Assembly: GCA_051251855.1 (NCBI GenBank)
Contig: JBPOGI010000001.1
Coordinates: 1,184,001 to 1,248,000, forward strand
Source of the DNA: Roseibacillus sp.
GTDB lineage: Bacteria > Verrucomicrobiota > Verrucomicrobiia > Verrucomicrobiales > Akkermansiaceae
Length of the DNA stretch: 64,000 nt
Direction of reading: 5' to 3'
A program made the translations under genes and the position numbers. This document shows positions 1,570 through 54,356 of the stretch, piece after piece (position 1 is the first letter of the stretch; every line of letters begins with the position of its first letter). The notes beneath the pieces are model-generated. The model was not told the DNA's origin. It did no database searches and saw only the letters and a program-made list of their open reading frames with translations.

Positions 1570-1671
1570 GATTTGAGTTCAACCTGAACTAAGGAAAGCC
1601 AGCTTTAGGCTGATTTCCTCCCAAATCAGTCCCCAATCACCAGCCCCCCTGTTTGTTCACCCATTTATGAA
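1570..1671 (+). promoter_or_regulatory. Conserved leader, copy 1: GTTCA-ACC-TGAAC palindrome, overlapping hairpins, TGTTCACCC before the ATG
   Basis: 1570-1589 is 19/20 identical to 6505-6524. Stem GGCTGATTT/AAATCAGTC at 1608-1631. AATCAC..GCCCCCC..TTTGTTCACCC precedes the ATG. Confidence 0.6.
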
Positions 1672-4600
1672 AGCAATCACTGCGTATTGTAGGCACCTCC
1701 TGTTCGCGAGTTGCCTTTTCCTCCCTTTGGCTCAAGCACAAGAGGTCGTCTGGACTTCCGGAGTCACCGCCAAGGTCTTCGACATTCAGGAATCGATGGA
1801 CCGCGTCTATGAACTCGTTCCCAACCAGACTCCCAATGTCGACCAAGTGCGGCCCACCATCGACTTTGGTAACGGCTCCTTTGTCGATCCCACCATCGGG
1901 CAAGATTACGCCGACTTCTTTCTGGTAAAGATCTCCGCTGAAGTCTTCGCCGCCACCTCGGGAACCTACACCTTCGAGCTCGAAAGTGATGACGGCAGCA
2001 TTCTCTATTTTGACCAAGAAATCGTCTGTGACAACGATGGCACCCACGGCCCCGAGACCGTCAGCGGCACTCGCTACCTCGATGCCGGTTGGCACGAGTT
2101 TAATATCACCGCTTTCAACGATGTCGGCGACTTCAAGCTTCAGCTGCGCTGGATTCAACCCGGACAGTCGAACGCGAGCATCATTCCCCAATCTGACTTA
2201 CGCACCGACAACAACGTCGTTCGAGTGATAGCCCCGGGAAAAAAATTCATTCTCAACAACGGTGACCTCAGCCCCGGCACCAGACTACCCGTTTCGGACA
2301 TTCACCCTTCATGGGAGCTCACCACCATTCGTCCCGACGACTTCGAGCCCCAAGTGGGAGCGATGACTCTCGCTAACGAGGACACCCTCTACCTTGGCAC
2401 CTTCGAGCCCAACCAGCAGGACGACACTGGCTTCGATGCCAAAGCCAAGGTCTGGCGTGTCGACAATGTCAACGGCGATCCTGCCAACGTCACCTACACC
2501 CAAGTTGCCGGGTCCCAGCTTGCGGGCACCACTTCTCTCACCGAAGTGACTGGGCTCGAGTGGTTCAATGGCGAGCTCTTTCTCGCCGAGCGCACCGGCA
2601 TCTTCCGCATGGTCGATGACAACGGGGACGGACTCTTCGAAGACAAAGAACTCATCGGCGATTCCTGGGACTGGGACAACTTTCACCAATTCCCCTTCAG
2701 CCTGAAACATCGCACTGAAGAAGACGGTGACTACCTCTACGGAGCCCTCTCCGTCGCCATCAGTTTGGGCGGCAACAGCGACTCCAATCGCGACGACTAT
2801 CGCGGTTCCGTCTTCCGTCTCAAAATCCCAGCACGCGGCCAAGGTAACGACGTCGAGTATCTCGCAGGAGGCTTCCGCACCCCTAACGGAGTCGGCTTCG
2901 GCCCTGAGGGCGGACTCTTTGTGACCGATAACCAGGGCGCATGGAATCCCTCTAACAGCCTCGTTCATGTCGTGCCCGGCCGCTTCTACGGCCACTTCAA
3001 CCCCACCGATGTTTGGCCGCAACCAGACGACTATGTCCCAGTCCCTGGGCGCTTCGAAGACCAGCCGATTTCACCCAAGACAGTTCATTTCCCTCAAAAC
3101 GAAGTCTCCAACTCCCCCAGCGATATTCTTGCACTCGAAGAAGGTCCTTTCGCCGGACAACTTCTCGTGGGCGAACTCACCGCGGGAGGTATTCGCCGTG
3201 TCTTTCTCGAAGAAGTCGGAGGCGAGTTTCAAGGAGCTCTCTTCCGCCACTCTCAAGGATTCGAAGCTGGGGTCAATCGTCTCCGTCTTTCCGACGATGG
3301 TTCCATCTACGTGGGCTGTATGGGCTCCAACGGTGGCTGGTCTTACCAAGATTTAGTTTACGGCCTGCAACGAATGCAGCCAAAAGCAGATGCACCAACA
3401 GTCTTCGAAATCAAAACGGTCAAAGCACTGAAGACTGGCATTGAGGTCGAGTTTACCAAGCCCGTCCCTACCGCCCTCCTCGGCAACGTGGATAGCTACT
3501 TCGTGCAACAATGGCGCTATCTCCCCACCGAAAATTACGGCGGCCCCAAAATTGATCTAAAAGAACTCCCCATCACAGCCACCGCAATCTCCGGTAATCG
3601 TCAGCGGGTCCAGCTCACTCTGCCCGAGATGGAAGCAGGCCATGTCATCTACCTCCGCACCGGCATTCGCGATGACTCCGGCGAAAACCTCTGGAGTGGA
3701 GAAGCCTGGTATACCATGAACCAAATCCCCGACACGGCGCCGCCATCCCTCGGTGTTGGCGAATGGGTCGACCTCTTCAATGGAGAAAACCTTGATGGTT
3801 GGCGCGCCTTTAAAGGAGGAGCCCTTCCTGAACGTTGGACCGTGCAGGATGGAGTCCTCACTCTTGACCCCGACCTACCCGGCGAAGTCACCGACATCGT
3901 CACCGAGCAGAGCTATGACGACTTCGAATTCGAGATGGAGTGGAAAGTTGAGCCCGACCAAAACTCAGGACTCTTCATCCGTTTGAGCGAGCAATACAAT
4001 CAAATCTGGGAAGGCGGACCCGAGATGCAAATCGTCGATGACGAACTCAATATCGACGGTCAAAACGACATCACTCGCGCAGGTGCCATCTACAACCTCT
4101 ACCCCTTCCCCGCTGGTTCCTCCAATTCCGCTAATACTTGGAACCAGGTGCGCATCATCGCCGATGGAACTCAGACCAGCTACTACCTCAATGATGACCT
4201 AGTCGCCTCCTTTGACGTGGAGAGCGCCGATTACTGGAGCCGCGTGCAAGCCTCCAACTTCAATTACATTCCCGACTTTGGTCGCCTCCCATCGGGGCCA
4301 ATCGGCTTTCAAGACTACAATAACCACGTTCAATACCGAAACATTCGTATCCGCTCCCTGAATGGCATTATTGTTCCAGATCCCGATCCCAATCCTGACC
4401 CCAATCCAGATCCCGACCCCGATCCAGATCCAAATCCAGATCCTAACCCCGACCCAGATCCGGAGCCCAATCCAGACCCCTCCACCTTGACCGATGGCTT
4501 CTTGCGCTTCGAGCTCGAAGAAGGAGTGCTCGCCAACGGGGCAGAGTTCAGCAACGAAGACCCAGGCTTCAGTGCCGACGGCTTTGTGGGCAGTTGGGAC

Positions 4601-6265
4601 GGAATCGATGACAACGAGACAGTCACGGCCACGATCGACATCACCGTAGCTGGCCTCCATCAAATCGTGCTTCGCTATGGTCGCGGAACCTGGTCTGGTT
4701 TCGGTCAGCTCATCGGTGAAGGACAGATCGAACTTCTCGTTGATGGCGCTCTCCTCGAGACCGTCATCCTGAACACCTCCCCCGAGTGGACTGATTGGCA
4801 AGACTCGGCAACCATCCCCCTCCAGTTGGAGGCAGGAACCCACACCATCACCTGGCGCAATCCCTACTCCACCTCTTCCGACAAAGGCCTAGGTATAGCC
4901 AACTTAGATTATTTTGACCTCAGCTTCTTAGAAGGCTCAAATCCCGACCCCGACCCCGACCCCGACCCAGATCCAGATCCAGATCCCAACCCTGATCCTG
5001 ATCCAACCCCCGACCCAGATCCGGAGGCTCCCGCTCTGGTCGATGGCTTTTTACGCTTCGAGCTCGAAGAAGGAGTTCTTTCTAACGGGGCTCAGTTGAG
5101 CGACGGAGATCCCGGCTTCAGTGGCAGTGGTTTTGTCGCCAGTTGGGACGGTATTGGTGACAACGAAGAAGTCTCGGCAATCTTCAACGTTATTGAAGCT
5201 GGCTCCCATCAAATTGTTCTTCGCTACGGTCGCGGCACTTGGTCAGGCCTCGGTCAGCTCGTTGGCTCAGGAGAAGTCGAACTCTTGATCGACGGTGTCC
5301 TGGCTCAATCCGTCGCCCTCAACACCAGCGCTGAATGGACAGATTGGCAAGACTCCGCAGTCGTCCCTCTGCAACTGGAGGCAGGAACCCACATCATTAC
5401 TTTGCGAAATCCCCATTCTTCCTCAGCCGACAAAGCCCTTGGGGTCGCCAACTTCGATTACTTGGACATCACTTTCGATGGCGAGATTCCCCCTCCGCCA
5501 CCCGAACCAGAGCCTAACATCCTCCGCCTCGAATTCGAAGACGGCACACCAAGCAACGGAGCCACGGTGAGCAGTATCCACCCCGGCTACAGCGGCTCTG
5601 GCTTCATCACAGGATGGGAGCAAATCGGTAGTAACGAAGAGGTCGCGCTGACTTTTTCTGCCCCCTTCACCGGAAATTACCAATTTCTATTTCGCTATGC
5701 CCGTAGTTCTGACTCTTTGGTAGGCCCCCTCACCGGTGACGGTGAAGTGGATCTTCAAATCGATGGCAATTGGGCTCAATCCTTTACCTTAACCACGCAA
5801 GCAAGCTGGACGGACTGGCAAGAAAGCGCGGTCAGCACTGTTCATCTCACCCAAGGAAGTCACGTCATCACCTTCCGCAATCCTTACGATGCAGCCCCAA
5901 ACAAACAAAAAGGAGTAGCCAATTTCGACTACCTGCAAATCACCTCCCCGGATGAAAACGAAACCCTTCCCTTTTCAGGACCGCTTGTTCCTACTTTGGA
6001 GAGCATTTCCATGACTCAGACCGATTCCGCCCCCCTTCCCCCGTATTCGGTTGAGATCCTGCGAGGAACTCTTTCCGCCAACATCCTGACTGAAGCAGGG
6101 ATCTCCTATGACCTGCTCTACTCAACAGACCTCTCGAACTGGTATACCCTCGCCAGTTTTGTGGGAGATGGCACTCGCAAAGAAGCCCAAGTCGCCAACT
6201 TCCTCCCTGACGCCTCTGAGGCCTTCTTCTCTCTCCGTTTGCAACCGGCCAGTGCCTTTGAGTAG
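1667..6265 (+). CDS. Secreted multidomain protein (1532 aa): signal peptide, PA14, sugar-dehydrogenase-like beta-propeller, DUF1080 (3-keto-disaccharide hydrolase-like), 3 CBM6/35-like modules, C-terminal domain
   Basis: Signal ending AQA-Q; PA14 motif GTYTFELESDDGS; propeller motif GFRTPNG..FVTDNQG; DUF1080 motifs LFNGENLDGW, NSGLFIR, EMQIVD, GPIGFQD..YRNIRIR; repeats ELEEG..GF.G.GFV...W.DW...L.AGTH.I...ANLDY; Pro-Asp linkers. Confidence 0.85.
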   Translation: MKAITAYCRHLLFASCLFLPLAQAQEVVWTSGVTAKVFDIQESMDRVYELVPNQTPNVDQVRPTIDFGNGSFVDPTIGQDYADFFLVKISAEVFAATSGTYTFELESDDGSILYFDQEIVCDNDGTHGPETVSGTRYLDAGWHEFNITAFNDVGDFKLQLRWIQPGQSNASIIPQSDLRTDNNVVRVIAPGKKFILNNGDLSPGTRLPVSDIHPSWELTTIRPDDFEPQVGAMTLANEDTLYLGTFEPNQQDDTGFDAKAKVWRVDNVNGDPANVTYTQVAGSQLAGTTSLTEVTGLEWFNGELFLAERTGIFRMVDDNGDGLFEDKELIGDSWDWDNFHQFPFSLKHRTEEDGDYLYGALSVAISLGGNSDSNRDDYRGSVFRLKIPARGQGNDVEYLAGGFRTPNGVGFGPEGGLFVTDNQGAWNPSNSLVHVVPGRFYGHFNPTDVWPQPDDYVPVPGRFEDQPISPKTVHFPQNEVSNSPSDILALEEGPFAGQLLVGELTAGGIRRVFLEEVGGEFQGALFRHSQGFEAGVNRLRLSDDGSIYVGCMGSNGGWSYQDLVYGLQRMQPKADAPTVFEIKTVKALKTGIEVEFTKPVPTALLGNVDSYFVQQWRYLPTENYGGPKIDLKELPITATAISGNRQRVQLTLPEMEAGHVIYLRTGIRDDSGENLWSGEAWYTMNQIPDTAPPSLGVGEWVDLFNGENLDGWRAFKGGALPERWTVQDGVLTLDPDLPGEVTDIVTEQSYDDFEFEMEWKVEPDQNSGLFIRLSEQYNQIWEGGPEMQIVDDELNIDGQNDITRAGAIYNLYPFPAGSSNSANTWNQVRIIADGTQTSYYLNDDLVASFDVESADYWSRVQASNFNYIPDFGRLPSGPIGFQDYNNHVQYRNIRIRSLNGIIVPDPDPNPDPNPDPDPDPDPNPDPNPDPDPEPNPDPSTLTDGFLRFELEEGVLANGAEFSNEDPGFSADGFVGSWDGIDDNETVTATIDITVAGLHQIVLRYGRGTWSGFGQLIGEGQIELLVDGALLETVILNTSPEWTDWQDSATIPLQLEAGTHTITWRNPYSTSSDKGLGIANLDYFDLSFLEGSNPDPDPDPDPDPDPDPNPDPDPTPDPDPEAPALVDGFLRFELEEGVLSNGAQLSDGDPGFSGSGFVASWDGIGDNEEVSAIFNVIEAGSHQIVLRYGRGTWSGLGQLVGSGEVELLIDGVLAQSVALNTSAEWTDWQDSAVVPLQLEAGTHIITLRNPHSSSADKALGVANFDYLDITFDGEIPPPPPEPEPNILRLEFEDGTPSNGATVSSIHPGYSGSGFITGWEQIGSNEEVALTFSAPFTGNYQFLFRYARSSDSLVGPLTGDGEVDLQIDGNWAQSFTLTTQASWTDWQESAVSTVHLTQGSHVITFRNPYDAAPNKQKGVANFDYLQITSPDENETLPFSGPLVPTLESISMTQTDSAPLPPYSVEILRGTLSANILTEAGISYDLLYSTDLSNWYTLASFVGDGTRKEAQVANFLPDASEAFFSLRLQPASAFE
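4376..4480 (+). repeat. Pro-Asp/Pro-Asn linker repeat (second tract at 4943-5026)
   Basis: Encodes PDPDPNPDPNPDPDPDPDPNPDPNPDPDPEPNPDP with mixed codons. Confidence 0.9.
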
Positions 6266-6504: not shown

Positions 6505-6613
6505 GATGTGAGTTCAACCTGAACGGAGAAATTGTTGCTGCTTCGGCAGCGGCCTTTGCCCGCCAAGGCCCATAATCATCGCCCCCCTTTTTTGTTCACC
6601 CCCTTTATATGAA
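6505..6613 (+). promoter_or_regulatory. Conserved leader, copy 2
   Basis: GATGTGAGTTCAACCTGAAC; hairpin GTTGCTGC-TTCG-GCAGCGGC (6534-6553); overlapping GGCCTT/AAGGCC stem (6551-6570); TGTTCACCCCCTTTATATG at the start codon. Confidence 0.6.
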
Positions 6614-9600
6614 AGCAATCGTTATCGCGCGTTGCAGGAAACTCTTGTTTGCCTGTTACCTCTTCTTGCCTGTCGCCCAAGCACAGGAAGTCGTATGGAC
6701 CTCCGGCGTCACCGCCCAAGTCTACGACATTCAGGAATCGATGGACCGCGTCTATGACCTTGTTCCCAATCAAACTCCCAATGTGGATCAGGTACGGCCC
6801 GTCATCGACTTTAGCAACGGGTCTTTTGTCGATCCCACCATCGGGCAGGACTACACAGACTTCTTTCTGGTAGAAATTTCAGCCGAAGTCTTCGCCGCCA
6901 CTTCAGGAACCTACACCTTCGAGCTCGAAAGTGATGATGGTAGCATTCTCTACTTCAACGAAGAAGTCGTCTGCGACAACGACGGCGCCCACGGTCCCGA
7001 GACCGTCAGCGGCACCCGCTATCTCGAAGCCGGCTGGCACGAGTTCAATATCACCGCCTTCAACGACGTCGGCGACTTCAAACTCCAGTTGAGATGGATT
7101 CAGCCCGGACAATCCAACGCCAACATCATCCCTCAATCAGACCTACGCACCGACGACAACGTCGTCCGCGTGATCGCTCCGGGAAGAAAGTTTATCTTGA
7201 ACAATGGCGACCTTAGCCCTGGCACGGGACTCCCCGTATCTGACATTCACCCCGGATGGGAGCTGAGCACGATTCGCCCCGATAGCTTTGAACCCCAAGT
7301 AGGAGCGATGGCCCTCGCTAACGAGAACACCCTTTACCTCGGCACCTTCGAGCCCAACCAGCAGGACGATACCGGCTTCGATGCCAAGGCCAGAGTCTGG
7401 CGCGTCGATAACGTCAATGGCGACCCCTCGAACGTGACTTACACCCAAGTCGCCGGCCATGACCTGAACGGAACCGCGTTTCTCAACGAAGTGACCGGTT
7501 TGGAGTGGTTCAATGGCGAACTCTTTCTCGCCGAGCGCACCGGTATCTTTCGCATGATTGATGACAATGGCGACGGGCTGTTTGAAAACAAGGAACTCGT
7601 CGGCGACTTGTGGGATTGGGACAACTTTCACCAATTCCCCTTCTGCCTCAAGCATCGCTCCGAAGAAGATGGCGACTACCTCTACGGAGCCCTTTCGGTC
7701 GCCATTGGTTTGGGTGGCAATAGTGACTCCAATCGCGACGATTTCCGCGGCTCCGCCTTCCGTCTTAGAATCCCCGCTCGCGGACAGCGCAATGATGTTG
7801 AATATCTCGCGGGTGGCTTCCGCACCCCTAACGGTGTTGGCTTCGGGCCCGAAGGCGGACTTTTCATCACCGACAACCAGGGAGGTTGGAACCCTTCAAA
7901 CAGCCTCGTCCATGCCGTTCCCGGTCGCTTTTATGGTCACTTCAACCCCACCGACGTCTTCCCCCCTCCTGCGGACTACACTCCTGTGGTGGGACGCTTT
8001 GAGAACGAGCCCATCTCTCCTAAGACGGTTCACTTCCCTCAGAACGAAGTCTCTAACTCCCCTTCTGATATTCTAGAACTCCAGGAAGGCCCCTTCGCCG
8101 GACAACTCTTGGTGGGCGAACTCACCGCTGGAGGTATCCGCCGCGTTTTCCTCGAAAAAGTGGGAGGCGAATTCCAAGGAGCCCTCTTCCGTCACTCACA
8201 GGGATTCGAAGCCGGCGTCAACCGCCTCCGCCTCTCCAATGATGGTTCCATCTACGTCGGTTGCATGGGCTCTAATGGAGGATGGTCTTACCAAGACCTC
8301 GTCTACGGTCTCCAAAGAATGCAGCCCAAAGCTGACGCCCCGTCGGTCTTTGAAATCAAAACCGTCAAAGCCCTCCAGACCGGTATCGAAGTCGAGTTCA
8401 CCAACCCCGTTCCTACTGCCCTTCTCGACAACGTCGATAGCTACTTTGTCCAACAATGGCGCTACGTCGCCACTGAAAACTATGGCGGTCCCAAAGTCGA
8501 TCTCACTGAACTTCCCATCAGTGCCACCGCAATCTCCGCCGACCGCAAAACCGTTCAGCTCACTCTTCCTGGAATGCAAGCCGGCCACGTGATCTACCTC
8601 CGTACCGGCATTCGTGACGACGACGGCGACAATCTCTGGAGCGGCGAAGCATGGTATACCATGAACCAGATTCCTGACTCCACTCCCCCCATTGGCAACG
8701 GCGATTGGGTCGACCTCTTCAACGGAGAAAACCTCGATGGCTGGCAAGCCTTTAAGGGCGGTGCTCTTCCTGAGCGTTGGACAGTGCGCGATGGCGTGCT
8801 CACCCTGGACCCCGACCTTCCCGGCGAAGTCACCGACATCGTGACGACCCAAAGCTTCGGCGACTTCGAATTCGAGATGGAGTGGAAAGTGGAGCCCGAC
8901 CAAAACTCGGGAATTTTCATTCGTCTCAGCGAGCAATACAACCAAATTTGGGAAGGCGGCCCCGAGATGCAAATCGTCGACGACGAGCTCAACATCGACG
9001 GCCAAAACGACATCACCCGCGCCGGCGCCATCTACAACCTCTACCCTTTTCCTGCAGGTTCCTCCAACTCCTCTAACAGCTGGAACCAAGTCCGCATCAT
9101 CGCCGACGGAACCCAGACAACCTACTACCTCAATGGACAACTGGTTGCCTCCTTCGATGTCGAAAGCGAAGATTACTGGAACCGGGTGCAGGCCTCCAAC
9201 TTCAATTACATCCCCGACTTCGGTCGTCTCACCTCAGGACCGATCGGATTTCAGGATTACAATAACAAGGTGCAGTATCGAAATATTCGCATCCGCGATC
9301 TCAATGGCATTATCAACCCCGAACCTGAGCCCGAACCTGAGCCCGAACCTGAGCCCGAACCTGAGCCCGAACCTGAGCCCGAGCCTGAGCCCGAGCCCGA
9401 ACCGGAACCTGGCACACCCACTCTTACCGATGGCTTTGTGCGCTTGGAACTCGAAAACGGCAATCCCTCCAACGGTGCCGTGGTCAGCAACGAAGACCCC
9501 GGATACAGTAGCACTGGATTTATCGCAGGATGGGATGGCATTGGCCAAAACGAAGAACTCAGCATCGAGGTCAACATTCCAGAGGCTGGCTCTCACGAAT

Positions 9601-11654
9601 TCCTTCTTGGCTATGGCCGTGCCACTTGGTCGGCGGTGGGACAACTCATCGGAGACGGAGAAGTGCAACTCCTCATCGATGGAAACCTAGCCGCTACACT
9701 CGCGCTGCCCACCTCTAGCGAGTGGAGTGAGTGGCAAGTGACGACAGCCCTCTCGCTTCAACTGGATGCCGGGGTTCAGACTATCACTCTCAGAAACCCC
9801 TATTCTTCCGAAAGCACCAAAGGACAAGGAGTCGCCAACTTCGACTTTCTTGACCTCTCTTTCCAAGGCTCCCCCCCCGAACCGGAACCGGAACCGGAAC
9901 CGGAACCCGAGCCCGAACCAGGCACCCCCACTCTCGAAAACGGCTATGTGAGACTTGAGCTTGAAGAAGGCTCACCCAGCAATGGCGCACGCCTGAGCAA
10001 CGAGGACCCCGGTTACAGCGGCACAGGTTTCATCGCTGGCTGGGACGGTATCGGAAACAACGAGCAGACCCAGATTTCCGTCAACATTCCCGAATCTGGC
10101 GTCCACCAACTTGTTCTCTCCTACGGTCGCGCAACCTGGTCAGCGGTAGGCCAACTGATTGGTGAGGGTGAAGTCGAGCTGATAGTCGATGGCACCTATG
10201 CTCAAACTCTGGCCCTCCAAACATCGACCAACTGGGACGAGTGGCAACAGGTCGAGATATCGCTTAACTTGGAGGCAGGTTTCCGCTCCCTCACCCTGCG
10301 CAACCCTCATTCTTCAGAAGCCGACAAAGGAAGAGGAGTCGCTAACTTCGACTTCATTGACCTCACTTTCGGAGGAACAACTCCTCCAGAACCTGAGCCC
10401 GAACCCGAACCGGAACCAGAGCCAAGCGTTCTTCGTATCGAATTCGAAGATGGCACCCCAACCGATGGGGCTTTCGTCAGTTCCGATGACCCCGGCTATA
10501 GCGGCAGCGGCTTCATCGCCGGATGGGACGGTTATAATCGCAACGAAACAGTAACAGTCCCATTTTCCATCGTCACCTCGGGAGATTACGAAATCACTCT
10601 TCGCTATGGACGCGCCAATTATTCCGGAGTGGGACCACTCTCTGGCTTCGGACAAGTCGACATGGCCCTTGATGGGGTTTACCTCGACTCCGTTCTTCTC
10701 TCGACAAACGGTGATTGGAGCGTGTGGCAGGACTCACCCACAACCGCCGTTTACTTGGAGGCTGGCAACCACAGTATCACCTTGCGTAACCCCTTCTCGA
10801 GCGAAAGCGAAAAGGCCCTTGGAGTCGCCAACTTCGACTTTCTGGAACTCACATCTGTTGGCGGTCCCGTTACTCCTCCACCCGTTGGCAATGACATCCA
10901 GCGTCTTGAACTCGAGAACGGCACCCCTGCCAAGGGAGCCGAAGTCAGTAACGAAGGCCCTGGATTCAGCGGCACAGGCTATATCAGCAATTGGGATGGC
11001 ATCGACACCAACGAAGAAGTAGCCGTCCCATACGAAGCAGCCACCTCAGGGAACTATCAGTTCACCGTGCGCTACGCCCGTGGCCCGGACTCAGCAGTGG
11101 GCCCTCTCACTGGAACTGGTGAAGTCGAACTACAAATCGATGGTCGCTGGGTGCAAACATTCAAACTACAAACTCAGACGACTTGGGATGACTGGCAACT
11201 AACGGAGACTCTTACCGTCTACCTTGAAGCAGGTCTTCATAATTTGATTTTAAGAAATGCCTTCGGCAACGTAGCCGAAAAGCCTGAGGGAGTTGCCAAC
11301 TTTGACTACTTAGAAGTGGAGGCCCCTCGCGAAGAAATTGCGGCTTCTGCTATCGAGGGCGCTTTCGCGAACGCCTACCAAGATTTTTCATTGTCGTTCG
11401 ATGAACCAGATGAGGAAACCCCCTACTCATCCTCACTTTCGCGCGGCATTCTATCTGCTCGCATTCTCACCGAACCCGGAACCACCTATTACGTCGAATA
11501 CTCTCGTGATTGTAGTGTCTGGCAACGTGGACTCACATTCGTGGGAGAAGGCTCGATTCAATCATCAGAAATCGCGAACATACTTGTCGACTCGCCACAG
11601 GGGTTCATGCGCATCCGCTCGGTCCCGACTCCTTCTGATGAAGCTCCTCAATAA
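6609..11654 (+). CDS. Tandem paralog of 1667-6265 (1681 aa): PA14, beta-propeller, DUF1080, 4 CBM6/35-like modules, C-terminal domain
   Basis: First ~900 aa are colinear and highly similar to the upstream gene. Pro-Glu linkers and one extra CBM-like repeat. Confidence 0.85.
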   Translation: MKAIVIARCRKLLFACYLFLPVAQAQEVVWTSGVTAQVYDIQESMDRVYDLVPNQTPNVDQVRPVIDFSNGSFVDPTIGQDYTDFFLVEISAEVFAATSGTYTFELESDDGSILYFNEEVVCDNDGAHGPETVSGTRYLEAGWHEFNITAFNDVGDFKLQLRWIQPGQSNANIIPQSDLRTDDNVVRVIAPGRKFILNNGDLSPGTGLPVSDIHPGWELSTIRPDSFEPQVGAMALANENTLYLGTFEPNQQDDTGFDAKARVWRVDNVNGDPSNVTYTQVAGHDLNGTAFLNEVTGLEWFNGELFLAERTGIFRMIDDNGDGLFENKELVGDLWDWDNFHQFPFCLKHRSEEDGDYLYGALSVAIGLGGNSDSNRDDFRGSAFRLRIPARGQRNDVEYLAGGFRTPNGVGFGPEGGLFITDNQGGWNPSNSLVHAVPGRFYGHFNPTDVFPPPADYTPVVGRFENEPISPKTVHFPQNEVSNSPSDILELQEGPFAGQLLVGELTAGGIRRVFLEKVGGEFQGALFRHSQGFEAGVNRLRLSNDGSIYVGCMGSNGGWSYQDLVYGLQRMQPKADAPSVFEIKTVKALQTGIEVEFTNPVPTALLDNVDSYFVQQWRYVATENYGGPKVDLTELPISATAISADRKTVQLTLPGMQAGHVIYLRTGIRDDDGDNLWSGEAWYTMNQIPDSTPPIGNGDWVDLFNGENLDGWQAFKGGALPERWTVRDGVLTLDPDLPGEVTDIVTTQSFGDFEFEMEWKVEPDQNSGIFIRLSEQYNQIWEGGPEMQIVDDELNIDGQNDITRAGAIYNLYPFPAGSSNSSNSWNQVRIIADGTQTTYYLNGQLVASFDVESEDYWNRVQASNFNYIPDFGRLTSGPIGFQDYNNKVQYRNIRIRDLNGIINPEPEPEPEPEPEPEPEPEPEPEPEPEPEPEPGTPTLTDGFVRLELENGNPSNGAVVSNEDPGYSSTGFIAGWDGIGQNEELSIEVNIPEAGSHEFLLGYGRATWSAVGQLIGDGEVQLLIDGNLAATLALPTSSEWSEWQVTTALSLQLDAGVQTITLRNPYSSESTKGQGVANFDFLDLSFQGSPPEPEPEPEPEPEPEPGTPTLENGYVRLELEEGSPSNGARLSNEDPGYSGTGFIAGWDGIGNNEQTQISVNIPESGVHQLVLSYGRATWSAVGQLIGEGEVELIVDGTYAQTLALQTSTNWDEWQQVEISLNLEAGFRSLTLRNPHSSEADKGRGVANFDFIDLTFGGTTPPEPEPEPEPEPEPSVLRIEFEDGTPTDGAFVSSDDPGYSGSGFIAGWDGYNRNETVTVPFSIVTSGDYEITLRYGRANYSGVGPLSGFGQVDMALDGVYLDSVLLSTNGDWSVWQDSPTTAVYLEAGNHSITLRNPFSSESEKALGVANFDFLELTSVGGPVTPPPVGNDIQRLELENGTPAKGAEVSNEGPGFSGTGYISNWDGIDTNEEVAVPYEAATSGNYQFTVRYARGPDSAVGPLTGTGEVELQIDGRWVQTFKLQTQTTWDDWQLTETLTVYLEAGLHNLILRNAFGNVAEKPEGVANFDYLEVEAPREEIAASAIEGAFANAYQDFSLSFDEPDEETPYSSSLSRGILSARILTEPGTTYYVEYSRDCSVWQRGLTFVGEGSIQSSEIANILVDSPQGFMRIRSVPTPSDEAPQ
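9318..9410 (+). repeat. Pro-Glu linker with 5 perfect 12-bp units CCCGAACCTGAG (9318-9377)
   Basis: Read directly; encodes (PE)15P. Confidence 0.95.
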
Positions 11655-11689: not shown

Positions 11690-11766
11690 TAACAAGGAAC
11701 TCAATAGACAGGGGTTCGTCTCATCCTTCTGCAGAGCGACTCTGAAAAGTCGCTAAAAAAAGGGGG

Positions 11767-12123
11767 GCGGCCGCTCTCCTGTAAGCCGGATTCTGTTCCG
11801 TTGGCCCTGCGCCAACTTCGATGACCATTTCTCTGTGCGACTAGTACCCGGGGATCAACGGACGGGTCGCCCTTTCCCCTGTTCTGTCTTGCACCACGTG
11901 GGGTTTGCCCTGCCACCTCAGTTGCCCTTGGCGCGGTGGGCTCTTACCCCACCATTTCACCCTTACTCTGGCGAACCAAAGCGGTATATTTTCTGCGGCA
12001 CTTTCCGTCCAATCTCGCTTGCACGACACTGTCCCCCGTTTTCACGAGGCACGCTACCCTATGGAGTCCGGACTTTCCTCACTGAAGCAGAAGCCTCACT
12101 GCGGTCATCCGGAGAGCGGACGC
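11767..12123 (-). ncRNA. rnpB: RNase P RNA (bacterial class A)
   Basis: Minus strand carries GAGGAAAGTCCGGACTCC, AGTGCCGCAGAAAATATACCGC, GGTGAAATGGTGGGGTAAGAGCCCACC and ACAGAATCCGGCTTACAG. Ends pair as P1 (CCGCTCTCC/GGAGAGCGG) and are followed by a U-run. Confidence 0.97.
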
Positions 12124-40237: not shown

Positions 40238-40849
40238 CTAGTAAACTTGAGGTGAACCTTTGGTAGAAATCAGCTGCACATCAGACGGCAACTCCCGCAC
40301 GCTCTGGCCTCCCGCCATCAAATCGTATGAGTCAGGAATTGGTTGTAAGCCATCGAGCACAATCACACTCGTCCCCGCCGCATCCGCATTGACGATGGTT
40401 GAGGTCACGCCTCCTTCTGGAGTGTAAACAAGAGGCCGGCTTTGCTCCTTAGCCACCACAAGTTGATTCTCCACTGGAGCTTTTCCTACTCGCGTGCCAG
40501 CAAGAAAGGCAACCGCCATGGCGCCCACTGCCACCGGAGCCAGCCACCACTTCAAAGCATCACGCCAAGTGCCTGATGCTTTAGAGGGCGCAGCAACTCC
40601 CTCTTCACGATCGGCATCTCGAATAGCCTGCTCCAGCTTCGTCTGGAAAAAATCGCCATAAGGAACGTCACCTGTCTGACCAAACGCGCTTTGCAATTCG
40701 TTCCTCAGCTCCGAATGCCCCTCCTTCATCGCATGCAATTCAGGTTCGGCCTCCAAGATCAGAGCCAACTCCTCTTTCTCGCCAGTAGACAACACATCGT
40801 CATCCATCCAACGCACAATTAGTTCTTCTTTACGCTCCTGATTCATCAC
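40238..40849 (-). CDS. Putative transmembrane anti-sigma factor
   Basis: RseA/RskA-like N-terminus (ELIVRWMDD..LS..E), one TM, overlaps the ECF sigma stop. Confidence 0.75.
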   Translation of the reverse strand: MMNQERKEELIVRWMDDDVLSTGEKEELALILEAEPELHAMKEGHSELRNELQSAFGQTGDVPYGDFFQTKLEQAIRDADREEGVAAPSKASGTWRDALKWWLAPVAVGAMAVAFLAGTRVGKAPVENQLVVAKEQSRPLVYTPEGGVTSTIVNADAAGTSVIVLDGLQPIPDSYDLMAGGQSVRELPSDVQLISTKGSPQVY

Positions 40850-41489
40850 TTAGCAGTCCTTGTAGTTTCTTACGTGCATAAAATAAACGGCTCATCACCG
40901 TTCCCATCGAAATTTCCATCACATCCGCGATCTCTTTATAATCCATTCCCTGAACCTCGCGCAGCATCACCACCTCTTGATGCTCTGGCGAAAGCTTGCT
41001 CATCGCATCTTCGATACGGGTTCTCAGCTCATCATTGCGCATGGCATCATCCGGCCGAGCCTCTTGAGTCGGAGTCGTCAGCGCCCCCACCGCAATCTGG
41101 CTTTCCTTCATCAAAGTGTCGTCAAATTCGCCTGCGCTTTTTAATTTTCTCTTTCTCATCCAATCGTAAACCACGTTGTGGACGATTCGATACAACCAGG
41201 TCGAAAACTTGGCGCGCGCCTCGAACTTCGGAAGCGCCTTCCAAACCTTCAGAAACACCTCTTGAGACAAATCCCAAGCATCGGCGTCGTTTTTGACCAT
41301 ATTTTGAATCATTGCATATACTCGTCCGCGATGACGGGTCACGAGATCCTCGAAAGCCCGGGAGTCGCCTCCTTGGCTACGAGCCACAAGGTCCAGATCA
41401 ATCTGGGCATCGTCACCTCCTCCTCCGGCACTATCGCCAGAGTCCTTCGCCATCACCCCTTTCGACGCTGACCTAGTGAAAAAATTCAT
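40830..41489 (-). CDS. ECF sigma-70 factor (RpoE/SigW-like)
   Basis: GDSRAFEDLV, DLSQEVFLKVW, FSTWLYRI, YKEIA....GTVMSRLFYARKKL. Start could be 41453. Confidence 0.93.
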   Translation of the reverse strand: MNFFTRSASKGVMAKDSGDSAGGGGDDAQIDLDLVARSQGGDSRAFEDLVTRHRGRVYAMIQNMVKNDADAWDLSQEVFLKVWKALPKFEARAKFSTWLYRIVHNVVYDWMRKRKLKSAGEFDDTLMKESQIAVGALTTPTQEARPDDAMRNDELRTRIEDAMSKLSPEHQEVVMLREVQGMDYKEIADVMEISMGTVMSRLFYARKKLQGLLSDESGA

Positions 41490-41508
41490 CAAAATTTAAC
41501 GAAAACGT

Positions 41509-41537
41509 AGAATGCCTAAATACCACCAAAAAGGCAA
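41509..41537 (-). promoter_or_regulatory. Candidate sigma70-type promoter of the ECF operon (TTGCCT-17-CATTCT)
   Basis: Hexamers and spacing read on the minus strand ~20 nt before the ATG. Confidence 0.4.
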
Positions 41538-41584
41538 GGCAGGGCTCGCTTCAAAAAAAATCGAAAAAAAAGTGCCTCTTCTTT

Positions 41585-41611
41585 GAACGGATCGCTTCCT
41601 GACGGGTCTAC
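41585..41611 (+). promoter_or_regulatory. Candidate ECF (sigmaE-like) promoter GAACGG-16-TCTAC
   Basis: Matches the GAAC..-N16-TCT geometry of sigmaE/AlgU promoters; two A-tracts upstream (41553-41571). Confidence 0.55.
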
Positions 41612-41617
41612 TCCCTA

Positions 41618-41736
41618 TGTAGCAAGCAACTTTGCTTGTTGCAGTCTTCATATAAAGGGTGAACACCGTAGGGGATCTGAACAACCCTCTACAAACAAAG
41701 CTGGGGAAGTCTTTCGGGACTTCCCCAGTTTGTTTT
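41618..41736 (+). ncRNA. Candidate small regulatory RNA (~120 nt, three hairpins)
   Basis: 11-bp 5' stem (41618-41643), unpaired region 41644-41667, 7-bp stem (41668-41692), terminator. G-U pairs form only on the + strand. Confidence 0.65.
41700..41736 (+). terminator. Strong intrinsic terminator (possibly bidirectional, also serving rodA)
   Basis: CTGGGGAAGTCT-TTCG-GGACTTCCCCAG followed by TTTGTTTT. Confidence 0.88.
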
Positions 41737-41763
41737 CCCCCAAAAGTCTTACGCTAAGCCTCG

Positions 41764-42960
41764 CTATCGAGCTCGTTCCTGCCGTCCATCCACCACCCCA
41801 TGCATCTCGTTGCGATGGACCCAGATACTTTGGACCAATCCCAACAAAAACATGCAGATCAGGACAAATGTTCCCGAATAGCTAATCAAAGGCAGCGGAA
41901 TTCCCGTAATCGGCATCAGTAGCACACACATCCCCACACTCTCAAAGATGTGCGCAAAAAACATCGCCACCACCCCCGAAGCCACCACCTGCCCTAAAAA
42001 ATCGCGACTATAGAAAGCCACGAAGAGCACCTGGATCAGCAACAACGCAAAAGAGGTCAGCATCAGCAGAGACCCGCGAAACCCCTGTTCCTCCGCAATC
42101 ACTGCAAAAATGTAGTCGTTGTGAGCCGTGGTCCACGGAATGTATTTTTTATCGTGAATCGAACCCCGTTCAGCTTTCGCCTTGTAGCCCATCCCCTTCC
42201 ATCCCGCTTGGCCCACCGCGAGGGAAACGTAGTACGATGCGTAGGTTTCATCACTCTTCTCCACCTTGCCATCACGCAAAAACTCCAAATACTGGTCAAT
42301 CCGCCCACTGGCACGATCGGAGACCTCCGGCAGAATCAAATAGTAAATAATCGGCAACATTCCGACCCCGGTGAGAATGATCGCGCTCAGGTAGCGGAAC
42401 GGAATTCCACCCACCAGCAGCGTCACAAATGCCACTGGCAGAAAAACAATCGCCGATCCCATGTCTCCGTTCTTCACAACGAGAACGAAAGGAACTCCAC
42501 AGACCACCGCCACAAAGGCCAGCTTCACCAGAGGTTCCCCAAAAATGCGATGAAAGCGCGGCAATTGGTCAAAAGCGGTTCCCAGTAGAATAATTCCTGC
42601 CGCCAGAACGAACGTCGTGGGCTGAAAACTAAAAGGAATCCCGGGAATCTGAAGCTGGTGAACCGCCGGCGCAGGAGCCTCCCAAATCCCAAACATAAGC
42701 ATCACCTGCAAAGTAACACCGCCCAAATACATCGGAATCGCCAGCCATTTCACCCAACGATAGTCAATAAGCGCCGTGCAAAAGTAGACCACGCTCCCCA
42801 AAAGAATAAACATCTTCTGATTGCGGGAAAAGTACTCACCTCCTTGAGGCAGGTGACGAGCGGCGCTTTCAATCGAAAAGACCCCAAACACCAAGAGCCC
42901 AAACATCACGATCACGAGGACCCAGTTCAGACCGAGGATTTTTCGAAGAAGAGGAGTCAC
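41764..42960 (-). CDS. rodA: SEDS family peptidoglycan polymerase (RodA/FtsW)
   Basis: DMGSA, AHNDYIFAVIAEEQGF.G, MPITGIPLPLISYSG. Confidence 0.88.
   Translation of the reverse strand: MTPLLRKILGLNWVLVIVMFGLLVFGVFSIESAARHLPQGGEYFSRNQKMFILLGSVVYFCTALIDYRWVKWLAIPMYLGGVTLQVMLMFGIWEAPAPAVHQLQIPGIPFSFQPTTFVLAAGIILLGTAFDQLPRFHRIFGEPLVKLAFVAVVCGVPFVLVVKNGDMGSAIVFLPVAFVTLLVGGIPFRYLSAIILTGVGMLPIIYYLILPEVSDRASGRIDQYLEFLRDGKVEKSDETYASYYVSLAVGQAGWKGMGYKAKAERGSIHDKKYIPWTTAHNDYIFAVIAEEQGFRGSLLMLTSFALLLIQVLFVAFYSRDFLGQVVASGVVAMFFAHIFESVGMCVLLMPITGIPLPLISYSGTFVLICMFLLGLVQSIWVHRNEMHGVVDGRQERAR

Positions 42961-54280: not shown

Positions 54281-54356
<76 letters not shown>

What the first reader, a model, noticed from the sequence alone, without database searches (positions are those of the whole stretch)
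41647..41665. Candidate sRNA seed is antisense to the start-codon regions of both giant secreted paralogs
Seen: the unpaired region TTCATATAAAGGGTGAACA (41647-41665) has reverse complement TGTTCACCCTTTATATGAA. The second paralog's start region (6593-6613) reads TGTTCACCC-CC-TTTATATGAA, so all 19 nt pair with one 2-nt bulge and the AUG at 6609 is covered. The first paralog (1654-1671) reads TGTTCACCC-ATT-TATGAA: the same 9-nt core plus 6 nt over its AUG. Established: E. coli sigmaE drives the sRNAs MicA, RybB and MicL, which repress envelope-protein mRNAs. Inference: an analogous ECF-sRNA circuit silencing large secreted glycan-active proteins in a verrucomicrobium; I do not recognise it as described.
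Basis: partly seen in the sequence, partly recalled or inferred. Interest (0 to 1): 0.9.

Follow-up and report, generated by a model that had tools for sequence, protein, structure and literature searches.

The report
Stress-sigma small RNA with conserved seed
This is very probably a real small regulatory RNA gene, driven by a stress-type promoter beside its sigma factor and belonging to a previously undescribed multi-copy RNA family of Verrucomicrobia, whose conserved seed matches the start regions of envelope, sugar-coat and giant secreted protein genes.

Summary
41647-41665 (+) is complementary to the start regions of both giant paralogs, and only 2 of 200 TTCAT-preserving seed shuffles matched any start region as well.

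The locus is a + strand sRNA gene of about 120 nt. It has an ECF-type promoter (TTGAAC-N17-GTCTA), two hairpins with compensatory changes, a conserved seed and a terminator. It is conserved in 7 genomes of the genus. The minus-strand ORF is not conserved, at 5-51 aa.

It belongs to a wider family:
- A second sibling lies on contig C6.
- The promoter-plus-seed pattern gives 58 matches in 29 of 301 genomes of the order, against 8 control matches, with up to 5 copies per genome.
- No Rfam family matches and four literature searches found no description.

The giant paralogs are plausible targets, not the best ones. A sugar epimerase start region pairs far better. GTTCACCC boxes are conserved in leaders of a sugar transferase and a DegP-like protease, and are missing where no sRNA was found.

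Expression and regulation are untested.

The parts
41583..41588 (+). -35 box TTGAAC of an ECF-type promoter
   Evidence: GAAC is invariant in 7 genus genomes while the 17-nt spacer varies. 27 of 28 family copies have GAAC-N17-G.. and 25 of 28 have GAAC-N17-GTC.
41606..41610 (+). -10 box GTCTA
   Evidence: Invariant in 7 of 7 genomes. It lies exactly 17 nt from GAAC in 27 of 28 copies. No sigma-70-type promoter was found in 41400-41800.
41617..41736 (+). Predicted sRNA, about 120 nt. The 5' end is inferred from the -10 box and is not mapped.
   Evidence: MFE is -55 kcal/mol, z -6.5. The consensus fold has 33 pairs. 95% of cells are paired, 9 pairs carry compensatory changes, and 0 of 500 shuffles reach the covariation score. 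Covariance model hits of 86-140 bits occur in 7 genus genomes.
41618..41643 (+). 5' hairpin 1
   Evidence: 10 pairs, 2 with changes on both sides. A U.G pair (columns 11-32) is present in 6 of 7 sequences. The hairpin is lost when the minus strand is folded.
41644..41667 (+). Seed region. The family-invariant core AAGGGTGAACA is 41655-41665, and CAT (anti-AUG) is 41649-41651.
   Evidence: Invariant block TGCAGTCTTCATATAAAGGGTGAACACCG in 5 of 7 genomes and near-identical in the other 2. The core is shared with the sibling and with copies in other genera.
41668..41692 (+). Hairpin 2, with the loop CTGAAC invariant in all 7 genomes of the genus and CTGAACAAC in 6 of them
   Evidence: 7 pairs, 4 with changes on both sides.
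41700..41736 (+). Terminator hairpin plus TTTGTTTT tail. It is bidirectional and also follows the minus-strand FtsW/RodA gene.
   Evidence: 13 pairs, 3 with compensatory changes. The consensus scan lists it on the minus strand only. The T-rich tail on the + strand was read by eye in all aligned copies.
40830..41453 (-). ECF sigma factor gene, divergent from the sRNA
   Evidence: Pfam Sigma70_r2, Sigma70_r4_2 and Sigma70_ECF. NCBIfam sigma70-ECF superfamily at 126 bits, above its cut-off; RpoE equivalog at 123 bits, below its cut-off of 236.
40238..40849 (-). Candidate anti-sigma factor
   Evidence: Weak NCBIfam 'antisigma' match, 29.9 bits against a cut-off of 100. Co-conserved with the sigma gene in genus loci.
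41462..41488 (-). Candidate promoter of the sigma gene itself, TGAAT-N17-GTCGA, ending 8 nt before the ATG
   Evidence: Both boxes are conserved in alignment A1. Sequence read. The function is inferred.
1654..1671 (+). Candidate sRNA site over the start codon of giant paralog 1 (gene 1667-6265)
   Evidence: The protein has PA14, 3-keto-disaccharide hydrolase and CBM35 domains.
6593..6613 (+). Candidate sRNA site over the start codon of giant paralog 2 (gene 6609-11654)
   Evidence: The box plus ATG is one of two conserved islands in the otherwise diverged paralog leaders.

Best explanation
41617-41736 (+) encodes a trans-acting small RNA of about 120 nt. It is transcribed from an ECF-type promoter (TTGAAC-N17-GTCTA). 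That promoter stands back to back with the promoter of an ECF sigma / anti-sigma operon, so that sigma probably drives it (inferred).

The RNA has a 5' hairpin, a conserved largely single-stranded seed (UCUUCAUAUAAAGGGUGAACA), a second hairpin and an intrinsic terminator. It is one of two siblings in this genome and a member of a multi-copy family found in several genera of the same verrucomicrobial family. All copies share the core AAGGGUGAACA, and most also carry CAU a few bases upstream.

The seed most likely pairs with GUUCACCC boxes, and where present with the AUG, in the 5' leaders of a set of mRNAs, and blocks ribosome access there. Repression is inferred and its direction is untested. 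Candidate targets in this genome, in order of support:
1. A sugar epimerase.
2. A DegP-like protease.
3. An initiating sugar transferase.
4. The two giant secreted PA14/CBM paralogs.
5. A small PEP-CTERM-like protein.

My odds for each step:
- sRNA gene real: 0.9.
- ECF-type promoter: 0.8.
- Acts by pairing with GUUCACCC boxes: 0.6.
- The giant paralogs are true targets: about 0.45.
For: Promoter:
- GAAC and GTCTA are invariant across 7 genomes with a variable 17-nt spacer.
- The same boxes and spacing occur in 27 of 28 copies from 18 genomes.

RNA strand and structure:
- The + strand consensus fold has 33 pairs. In the 30-pair structure counted, 9 pairs have compensatory changes, 95% of cells are paired (36.7-50% when slid) and 0 of 500 shuffles reach the covariation score.
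- G.U pairs are specific to the + strand, and hairpin 1 is lost on the minus strand.

Family:
- Sibling 2 at C6:206179-206369 (-) has the same promoter and core and is conserved in 6 of 9 genus genomes.
- The covariance model finds it in 7 genus genomes, plus 11 inspected copies in other genera.
- The promoter-plus-seed pattern gives 58 matches in 29 of 301 genomes of the order against 8 control matches.

Targets:
- The epimerase start region pairs at -36.2 kcal/mol, beyond all 11 control seeds (best -31.5). Pairing is -34 to -40 kcal/mol in 4 of 6 genus genomes.
- GTTCACCC occurs 12 times in -40..-1 of starts against 3.0 expected. 150 composition-matched controls average 2.28, with a maximum of 9.
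- The genes carrying the box are mostly envelope, exopolysaccharide or secreted proteins.
- Boxes persist in the otherwise diverged leaders of the sugar transferase (6 of 7 genomes) and the DegP-like gene (5 of 8 exact, 2 with one mismatch; absent in G005, where no sRNA was found).
- DegP-leader complementarity scores are 6-15 (10 of 11 at 8 or more) in the 11 genomes with the sRNA and 5-7 in the 6 without.
- Paralogs: score ranks 2 and 4 of 4709, 2 of 200 controls as good, and a conserved island in the leaders.
Against: - No expression data exist. No RNA run was on hand, so the transcript, its 5' end and its dependence on the sigma factor are all inferred.
- It is not shown that the boxes lie inside the target transcripts.
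- By duplex energy the paralogs (-25.4 and -24.7 kcal/mol) fall inside the range of control seeds.
- The only paralog ortholog (G002) has a bulged partial box. The third giant CBM gene's ortholog in G007 has no box.
- The epimerase pairing is absent from the G006 and G007 orthologs, and the epimerase was not found in 4 of 5 genomes of other genera. It therefore cannot be the ancestral target.
- G077's DegP-like leader scores only 6.
- In other genera the sRNA is not next to a homolog of this sigma within 1.5 kb.
- Related genomes are not independent samples.
- My gene starts are crude ORF calls.
- No Hfq was found, so the chaperone, if any, is unknown.
Confidence: 0.72

Rival explanations
1. 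The sRNA is real, but its match to the giant paralogs is fortuitous or without effect. The physiological targets are other box-bearing genes (epimerase, DegP-like protease, sugar transferase). This rivals only the reader's specific target claim, not the core explanation.
For: - The paralogs are unremarkable by duplex energy.
- The only ortholog keeps a partial, bulged box.
- The 9-mer TGTTCACCC is at chance frequency genome-wide, 44 copies.
- Much stronger or better conserved sites exist elsewhere.
Against: - 19 of 19 nt pair with one 2-nt bulge directly over the AUG.
- Only 2 of 200 TTCAT-preserving shuffles give any start region a score as high.
- The box is one of two conserved islands in the diverged paralog leaders.
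- A third giant CBM gene carries a similar leader.
Confidence: 0.4
2. GTTCACCC in the leaders is a DNA or promoter element, for example for short-leader or leaderless transcription, or the site of an RNA-binding protein. The sRNA's complementarity to it then serves some other purpose.
For: - In several genes the box ends only 4-9 nt before the ATG.
- No transcription start data exist.
- The box contains GTTCA, the complement of the -35 core TGAAC.
Against: - No common second promoter box was seen upstream of the boxes by eye.
- Box position varies from -8 to -35.
- The conserved complementary seed in 58 sRNA copies, and the loss of the box where no sRNA is found, are explained most simply by pairing.
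Confidence: 0.08
3. The functional strand is the minus strand. TGTTCACCC-TTTAT-ATG would be the start region of a small ORF or leader peptide upstream of the sigma gene, and the motif would be an ordinary initiation context.
For: - The minus strand reads like the paralog and epimerase start regions.
- It opens a 51-aa ORF in this genome.
- MKTA(T) is conserved.
Against: - ORF lengths are 51, 44, 13, 11, 11, 11 and 5 aa in 7 genomes, with frame-breaking indels.
- TTCACC occurs within 15 nt of 1.2% of first ATGs and of 0.8% of internal ATGs, so it is not a general context.
- G.U pairs and hairpin 1 exist only on the + strand.
- The promoter boxes face the + strand.
- Copies elsewhere are not linked to a sigma gene.
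Confidence: 0.04
4. There is no RNA function. The hairpin would be only the terminator of the FtsW/RodA gene, and the conserved blocks would be protein-binding sites of a divergent promoter region.
For: The terminator lies 28 nt after the FtsW/RodA ORF, and the scan lists it on the minus strand.
Against: - Compensatory changes occur in two further hairpins.
- + strand tails are T-rich in all aligned copies, while minus-strand tails are poor in several relatives.
- The same unit recurs away from RodA.
Confidence: 0.03

Closest known systems
MicA, RybB and MicL, the sigmaE-dependent envelope-stress sRNAs of E. coli (PMC4102768; I saw only the search listing and the start of the abstract)
   Same: A small RNA with an ECF (sigmaE-type) promoter and a terminator. 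A short conserved seed is aimed at the start regions of envelope and secreted protein mRNAs. It would form the repressing, non-coding arm of an envelope-stress sigma regulon. A DegP-type protease belongs to the circuit; its sigmaE link in E. coli is recalled, not taken from a call.
   Different: No sequence or structure similarity: no Rfam match, and the best sub-threshold hit is sX11 at 26 bits against a cut-off of 70. No Hfq was found in the genome. The RNA is multi-copy, lies next to its presumed sigma gene, and is in a different phylum. All function here is inferred.
MicV and VrrA of Vibrio cholerae, sigmaE-dependent sRNAs sharing a conserved seed-pairing domain (PMC6694218; listing and start of abstract only)
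   Same: More than one sigma-dependent sRNA in one genome shares a seed domain, as the two siblings here share AAAGGGUGAACA.
   Different: Unrelated sequence. Up to 5 copies per genome here. Targets are untested.
FoxJ (and FoxI, recalled), sigmaE-dependent sRNAs of Fusobacterium nucleatum (PMC11005410; listing and start of abstract only)
   Same: They show that sigmaE-sRNA circuits exist outside the Proteobacteria.
   Different: No similarity was tested or seen. FoxJ is reported to activate mRNAs, and the direction of regulation here is unknown.
Tandem ECF-type sRNA genes noted earlier in this same genome on another contig (earlier AI notes e1-4153266 and e1-4153267)
   Same: Small-RNA units, each with a two-box ECF-type promoter, lying beside an ECF sigma operon in the same genome.
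   Different: A different locus and sigma operon. I could not locate them, so I do not know whether they share this seed.

Membership tests
ECF/sigmaE-dependent envelope-stress sRNAs (functional class) | Transcribed from an ECF sigma-type promoter | tested here: met
   TTGAAC-N17-GTCTA has invariant boxes and a variable spacer. The same spacing occurs in 27 of 28 copies. This is a sequence motif only; dependence on the sigma factor was not tested.
ECF/sigmaE-dependent envelope-stress sRNAs (functional class) | Actual induction by the sigma factor or by envelope stress | not testable with these tools
   No RNA run was listed. The contigs laid say nothing on expression.
ECF/sigmaE-dependent envelope-stress sRNAs (functional class) | Small non-coding transcript ending in an intrinsic terminator | tested here: met
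   The structure has compensatory changes. No conserved ORF exists on either strand of the unit. The + strand T-tail was read by eye.
ECF/sigmaE-dependent envelope-stress sRNAs (functional class) | Seed pairs with start regions of envelope or secreted protein mRNAs and changes their translation | tested here: inconclusive
   Complementarity exceeds chance. The box is enriched upstream of starts. Boxes are conserved and co-occur with the sRNA. Regulation itself was not tested.
Hfq-dependent sRNAs | Hfq present in the genome | tested here: not met
   PF17209 gave 0 matches in G000, which is 95% complete. The control genomes matched.
Rfam families MicA, RybB, MicL or any other curated RNA family | Match to the covariance model at the gathering score | tested here: not met
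   Only RNase P and a tRNA matched in the window. Nothing came near threshold in 4 sRNA loci.
Sibling (multi-copy) sRNA families | Several homologous copies per genome sharing the seed | tested here: met
   2 copies in G000. Up to 5 per genome, some in tandem.
Leader peptide or upstream ORF of the sigma operon (minus strand) | Reading frame conserved among relatives | tested here: not met
   ORF lengths are 5-51 aa in 7 genomes, with frame-breaking indels.

The most novel reading that the evidence does not exclude
A previously undescribed, multi-copy family of ECF-sigma-driven sibling sRNAs in Verrucomicrobiota works without Hfq. Its invariant seed is an 'anti-start-region' (AAGGGUGAAC plus CAU). 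The seed recognises a GUUCACCC box in the leaders of a DegP-like protease, exopolysaccharide-synthesis genes and giant secreted glycan-binding proteins. The family would thus be the non-coding arm of an envelope-stress response that evolved independently of the proteobacterial MicA/RybB/MicL system.
Probability: 0.5. Interest if true: 0.72.

Novelty: new member of a known kind. Interest (0 to 1): 0.6.

Why it matters
- Regulatory RNAs are almost unknown in Verrucomicrobia and their relatives. Four full-text searches found no paper describing one, and Rfam holds no matching family.
- This locus gives a well-defined sRNA family with a promoter, a structure, a seed, siblings and a testable target set. 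The targets link an ECF stress sigma factor to surface-sugar synthesis, a periplasmic protease and large secreted glycan-binding proteins.
- If confirmed, it would show that the 'sigma factor plus repressing sRNA' design of envelope stress responses arose again in a distant phylum that appears to lack Hfq.
- It would also give a handle on how marine polysaccharide degraders control costly secreted proteins.

Tried and rejected
- Expression: no RNA holder was listed for the stretch. The three runs I laid are contigs of relatives and show only that the seed region is widely held. They say nothing on transcription.
- Generic start context: rejected. TTCACC occurs within 15 nt of 1.2% of first ATGs and of 0.8% of internal ATGs, and no Shine-Dalgarno enrichment was seen either.
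- Minus-strand ORF: rejected.
- Duplex-energy ranking proved noisy, because control seeds reach -31.5 kcal/mol. I added a Watson-Crick alignment score with two kinds of shuffle.
- Model R1 missed sibling 2 in the whole-genome search and found it only weakly among the loci. Alignment A5 from that call contains reverse-strand terminator hits and was not used.
- Two of the 13 weak model hits (L044, L049) lack the seed and look like terminator-only hits.
- The locus background partly overlaps the target windows, so only its means are usable.
- G005: no sRNA by model, DNA or pattern search. The single AAGGGTGAACA hit looks like coding sequence (no ORF check was run).
- I searched for the tandem sRNAs of the earlier notes by promoter clusters and found nothing convincing.
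- Orthologs of the third giant CBM gene: one found, without a box.
- Script slips: one search failed on a pattern and was fixed. One search printed nothing and was replaced.
- No supplementary files were read. The three comparator papers were seen only as a listing and the start of the abstract.

Full report
**1. The observation**

The + strand at 41647-41665 reads TTCATATAAAGGGTGAACA. Its reverse complement matches 6593-6613 with one 2-nt bulge and covers the ATG at 6609. It matches 1654-1671 as a 9-nt core plus TATGAA over the ATG at 1667.

TGTTCACCC occurs three times in the window, at exactly these places. The expected count is 0.42, and 1 of 100 shuffles reached 3.

Both target genes encode proteins of 1532 and 1681 aa with PA14, 3-keto-disaccharide-hydrolase and CBM35/CBM6 domains. 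Their N-termini look like signal peptides, by eye.

**2. What lies around the site**

On the minus strand an FtsW/RodA gene (41764-42960) ends just before a strong hairpin. Further on lie an ECF sigma factor gene (41453 down to 40830) and a weak anti-sigma candidate (40849 down to 40238).

The roughly 310-nt gap between RodA and the sigma gene holds the finding. No sigma-70-type promoter was found there. The terminator scan lists the hairpin on the minus strand only. The + strand tail TTTGTTTT was read by eye.

**3. It is a conserved + strand RNA gene**

The gap is conserved in the genus. Seven genomes align.

- *Promoter.* GAAC (41585-41588) and GTCTA (41606-41610) are invariant, while the 17 nt between them vary freely. 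That is the footprint of a two-box ECF-type promoter facing the + strand.
- *Fold.* Downstream, RNAalifold on the + strand gives 33 pairs in three hairpins. For the three-helix structure, 95% of cells pair, against 36.7-50% when partners are slid. Nine pairs have changes on both sides, and 0 of 500 shuffles reach the covariation score.
- *Strand.* Recurrent G.U pairs would be A.C on the other strand. Examples are columns 11-32 in 6 of 7 sequences and columns 63-79 in 6 of 7. Folding the minus strand loses hairpin 1. For this one sequence the + strand folds at -55.0 kcal/mol (z -6.5) and the minus strand at -49.8 (z -4.5).
- *Seed.* Between hairpins 1 and 2 lies the block TGCAGTCTTCATATAAAGGGTGAACACCG. 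It is invariant in 5 genomes and nearly so in the other 2. Its mean probability of being unpaired is 0.53.

**4.

The minus-strand ATG at 41651 opens ORFs of 51, 44, 13, 11, 11, 11 and 5 aa in the seven genomes, and indels in hairpin 1 break the frame.

I made 3656 crude ORF calls; 2965 first-ATG starts went into this test. TTCACC lies within 15 nt upstream of 1.2% of first ATGs and of 0.8% of internal ATGs. GGAG is not enriched upstream of starts either. The motif is therefore not a general initiation context.

**5. It belongs to a family**

- *A sibling in this genome.* A strict promoter scan of the genome ([TC]GAAC, 16-17 nt, GTCTA, intergenic) gave 5 sites. One is this locus. One, within C6:206179-206369 (-), heads a second sRNA. 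That sRNA has its own hairpins and terminator and the seed CAAAGGGTGAACAGTAGTTTTTCAGC. It is conserved, with compensatory changes read by eye, in 6 of 9 genus genomes.
- *Model search.* A covariance model built from the seven copies was run on 121 genomes of the family. It scored 86-140 bits in 7 genus genomes (none in G005 or G008) and 26-36 bits in 13 genomes of five other genera. On inspection, 11 of those 13 have TTGAAC-N17-GTC.., a hairpin, GCAGTTTTCATGTAAGGGTGAACAGCAG and a T-rich terminator. Two look like terminator-only hits.
- *Promoter spacing.* Of 28 copies collected, 27 have GAAC-N17-G.. and 25 have GAAC-N17-GTC.
- *Pattern search.* The pattern GAAC-N17-GTC-N30-50-AGGGTGAAYA gave 58 matches in 29 of 301 genomes of the order, against 8 matches of the reversed control.
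  - By group: family f1 24 of 85, genus g8 15 of 15, g11 3 of 3, g5 4 of 16, g3 0 of 37.
  - Copies reach up to 5 per genome, some in tandem.
- *Prior description.* No Rfam family matches. Four full-text searches found no paper on such an RNA in this phylum.
- *Link to the sigma gene.* Within the genus, sRNA 1 is always divergent from the sigma / anti-sigma operon. In G005 the sigma and RodA genes are about 160 nt apart and the sRNA is missing. In other genera no homolog of this sigma lies within 1.5 kb of the sRNA.
- *The sigma gene's own promoter.* The sigma gene has a conserved TGAAT-N17-GTCGA ending 8 nt before its ATG. This resembles the sRNA promoter and supports the same sigma driving both, but does not prove it.

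**6. Targets**

*Ranking in this genome.*
- By duplex energy over 4709 candidate start regions, the best partner is a 350-aa SDR sugar epimerase/dehydratase gene (C10:273660, minus strand) at -36.2 kcal/mol. Eleven control seeds reached at best -31.5. The paralogs lie 14th and about 20th in the list, at -25.4 and -24.7.
- By a Watson-Crick-only alignment score the order is epimerase 20, paralog 2 16, a PEP-CTERM-like gene 14, paralog 1 13.
- With 200 shuffles that keep TTCAT, the top hit averaged 12.5. It reached 16 in 2 shuffles and 20 in none.

*Epimerase in relatives.*
- Its start region pairs at -34 to -40 kcal/mol in G000, G001, G003 and G004, but not in the G006 and G007 orthologs.
- The gene was not found in 4 of 5 genomes of other genera.

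*The GTTCACCC box.*
- The 8-mer GTTCACCC, the complement of the family-invariant core, occurs 12 times (11 genes) in -40..-1 of starts, against 3.0 expected. Its reverse complement occurs 6 times there. 150 composition-matched controls average 2.28, with a maximum of 9.
- The 11 genes are the two giant paralogs, a third giant CBM6/35 protein, the epimerase, a Bac_transf initiating sugar transferase (two boxes), a DegP-like protease, a PEP-CTERM-like protein, a 189-aa protein with a signal-peptide-like N-terminus (by eye), an FG-GAP protein, TpiA and an AIRS-like gene with a doubtful start.

*Conservation of the boxes.*

| Gene leader | Result |
|---|---|
| Sugar transferase | One to three GTTCAC(CC) boxes in 6 of 7 genomes, in otherwise diverged leaders |
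| DegP-like protease, genus | GTTCACCC exact in 5 of 8 genomes and with one mismatch in 2, plus a second box TGAAGA..ACTGC; absent in G005 |
| DegP-like protease, scores | With sRNA, genus: 13.5, 12, 14, 8, 11.5, 8, 15. With sRNA, other genera: 9, 9, 6, 9. No sRNA found: 5, 5, 6, 6, 5, 7. Locus background means 5.5-6.1 |
| PEP-CTERM-like homologs (30-35% identity) | GTTCAC at -15 to -20 in 3 of 4 |

These genomes are related, so the counts overstate independence.

**7. The giant paralogs specifically**

For:
- The extended match lies over the AUG.
- Only 2 of 200 control shuffles do as well.
- In the diverged leaders of the two paralogs only two islands are conserved: a palindrome GTTCAACCTGAAC about 80-95 nt upstream of the start codon, and the box with the start codon.

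Against:
- The duplex energy is unremarkable.
- The paralogs are duplicates, so they count as one event.
- Orthologs were found only in G002 (66% identity), with a bulged GTTCAC-A-CCC. More distant homologs in G005 and G004 lack the box or could not be read.
- The ortholog of the third giant gene lacks the box.

I put the chance that the paralogs are true targets at about 0.45.

**8. Mechanism**

Shown by comparison: a structured + strand RNA gene with a conserved ECF-type promoter, a seed and siblings.

Inferred:
- Transcription by the neighbouring ECF sigma factor.
- Pairing of the seed with GUUCACCC boxes and the AUG.
- Occlusion of the start region, and hence repression.

For the DegP-like gene in this genus the box lies 27 nt upstream of the ATG, so the direction of regulation is open. 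No Hfq was found.

**9. Comparison with known systems**

It works like the sigmaE-dependent sRNAs MicA, RybB and MicL of E. coli, MicV and VrrA of Vibrio, and FoxJ of Fusobacterium (listing and start of abstract only). It shares no sequence or model match with any curated family.

Earlier AI notes report other tandem ECF-type sRNAs elsewhere in this genome. I could not locate them.

**10. Verdict**

This is a new sRNA family of a known functional kind. It is well defined by comparison but entirely untested by experiment.

Noticed in passing
G000 contig C6:206179-206369 (-), locus L092:480-670 (-): A second sibling sRNA. It has the promoter TTGAAC-N17-GTCTA, two hairpins, the seed CAAAGGGTGAACAGTAGTTTTTCAGC and a terminator. 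It lies between a DUF255 thioredoxin-like gene and a gene with a weak (sub-threshold) SurA-like N-terminal domain match, and is conserved in 6 of 9 genus genomes.
   Followed up: yes
G000 contig C7:377217-377243 (+), locus L093: A third strict ECF-type promoter match (TGAAC-N17-GTCTA). It lies directly upstream of a 276-aa lipoprotein-like gene with a weak NlpC/P60 match, and may belong to the same sigma regulon.
   Followed up: partly
window 1577-1589 and 6512-6524 (+): A perfect palindrome GTTCA-ACC-TGAAC, within a longer identical block, is conserved about 80-95 nt upstream of the start codons of both giant paralogs while the surrounding leader has diverged. It is likely a regulator binding site or promoter element.
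   Followed up: partly
window 41462-41488 (-): The sigma gene's own candidate promoter TGAAT-N17-GTCGA ends only 8 nt before its ATG at 41453. The sigma mRNA may therefore be leaderless or nearly so.
   Followed up: no
window 41675-41683 (+): In the loop of hairpin 2, CTGAAC is invariant in all 7 genus genomes and CTGAACAAC in 6 of them (G007 reads CTGAACACC); it is predicted 98% unpaired. It may be a second interaction site.
   Followed up: no
G077:C1:3309347-3312109 and other loci: Up to five sRNA copies per genome occur in another genus, three of them within 3 kb. In many copies the 5' arm of hairpin 1 reads ATGAAGACC and pairs with the GTCTTCAT or GTTTTCAT part of the seed, like a built-in target mimic.
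   Followed up: partly
whole genome G000: No Hfq (PF17209) was found in a 95% complete genome. Shine-Dalgarno-like GGAG is not enriched upstream of crude gene starts (ratio 0.47 against internal ATGs).
   Followed up: partly
G005, locus L006: In this genus member the sigma and FtsW/RodA genes are only about 160 nt apart and no sRNA was found. Its DegP-like leader also lacks the GTTCACCC box.
   Followed up: yes
window 41652-41736, run X1 record 3: A 322-nt contig of a public run holds the 3' 85 nt of the sRNA (seed core to terminator) without a single difference, flanked on both sides by unlike sequence. This may be a variant copy in another organism.
   Followed up: no
window 11766-12120 (-) and 54284-54356 (-): RNase P RNA class A (215.7 bits) and a tRNA gene are the only Rfam matches in the window.
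   Followed up: no
G000 contig C12:72316 (-), locus L107: A third giant (1244 aa) secreted-type protein with CBM6/CBM35 and cadherin-like domains has a leader ccccGTTCACCCcctttTTG resembling that of paralog 2. The G007 ortholog lacks it.
   Followed up: partly
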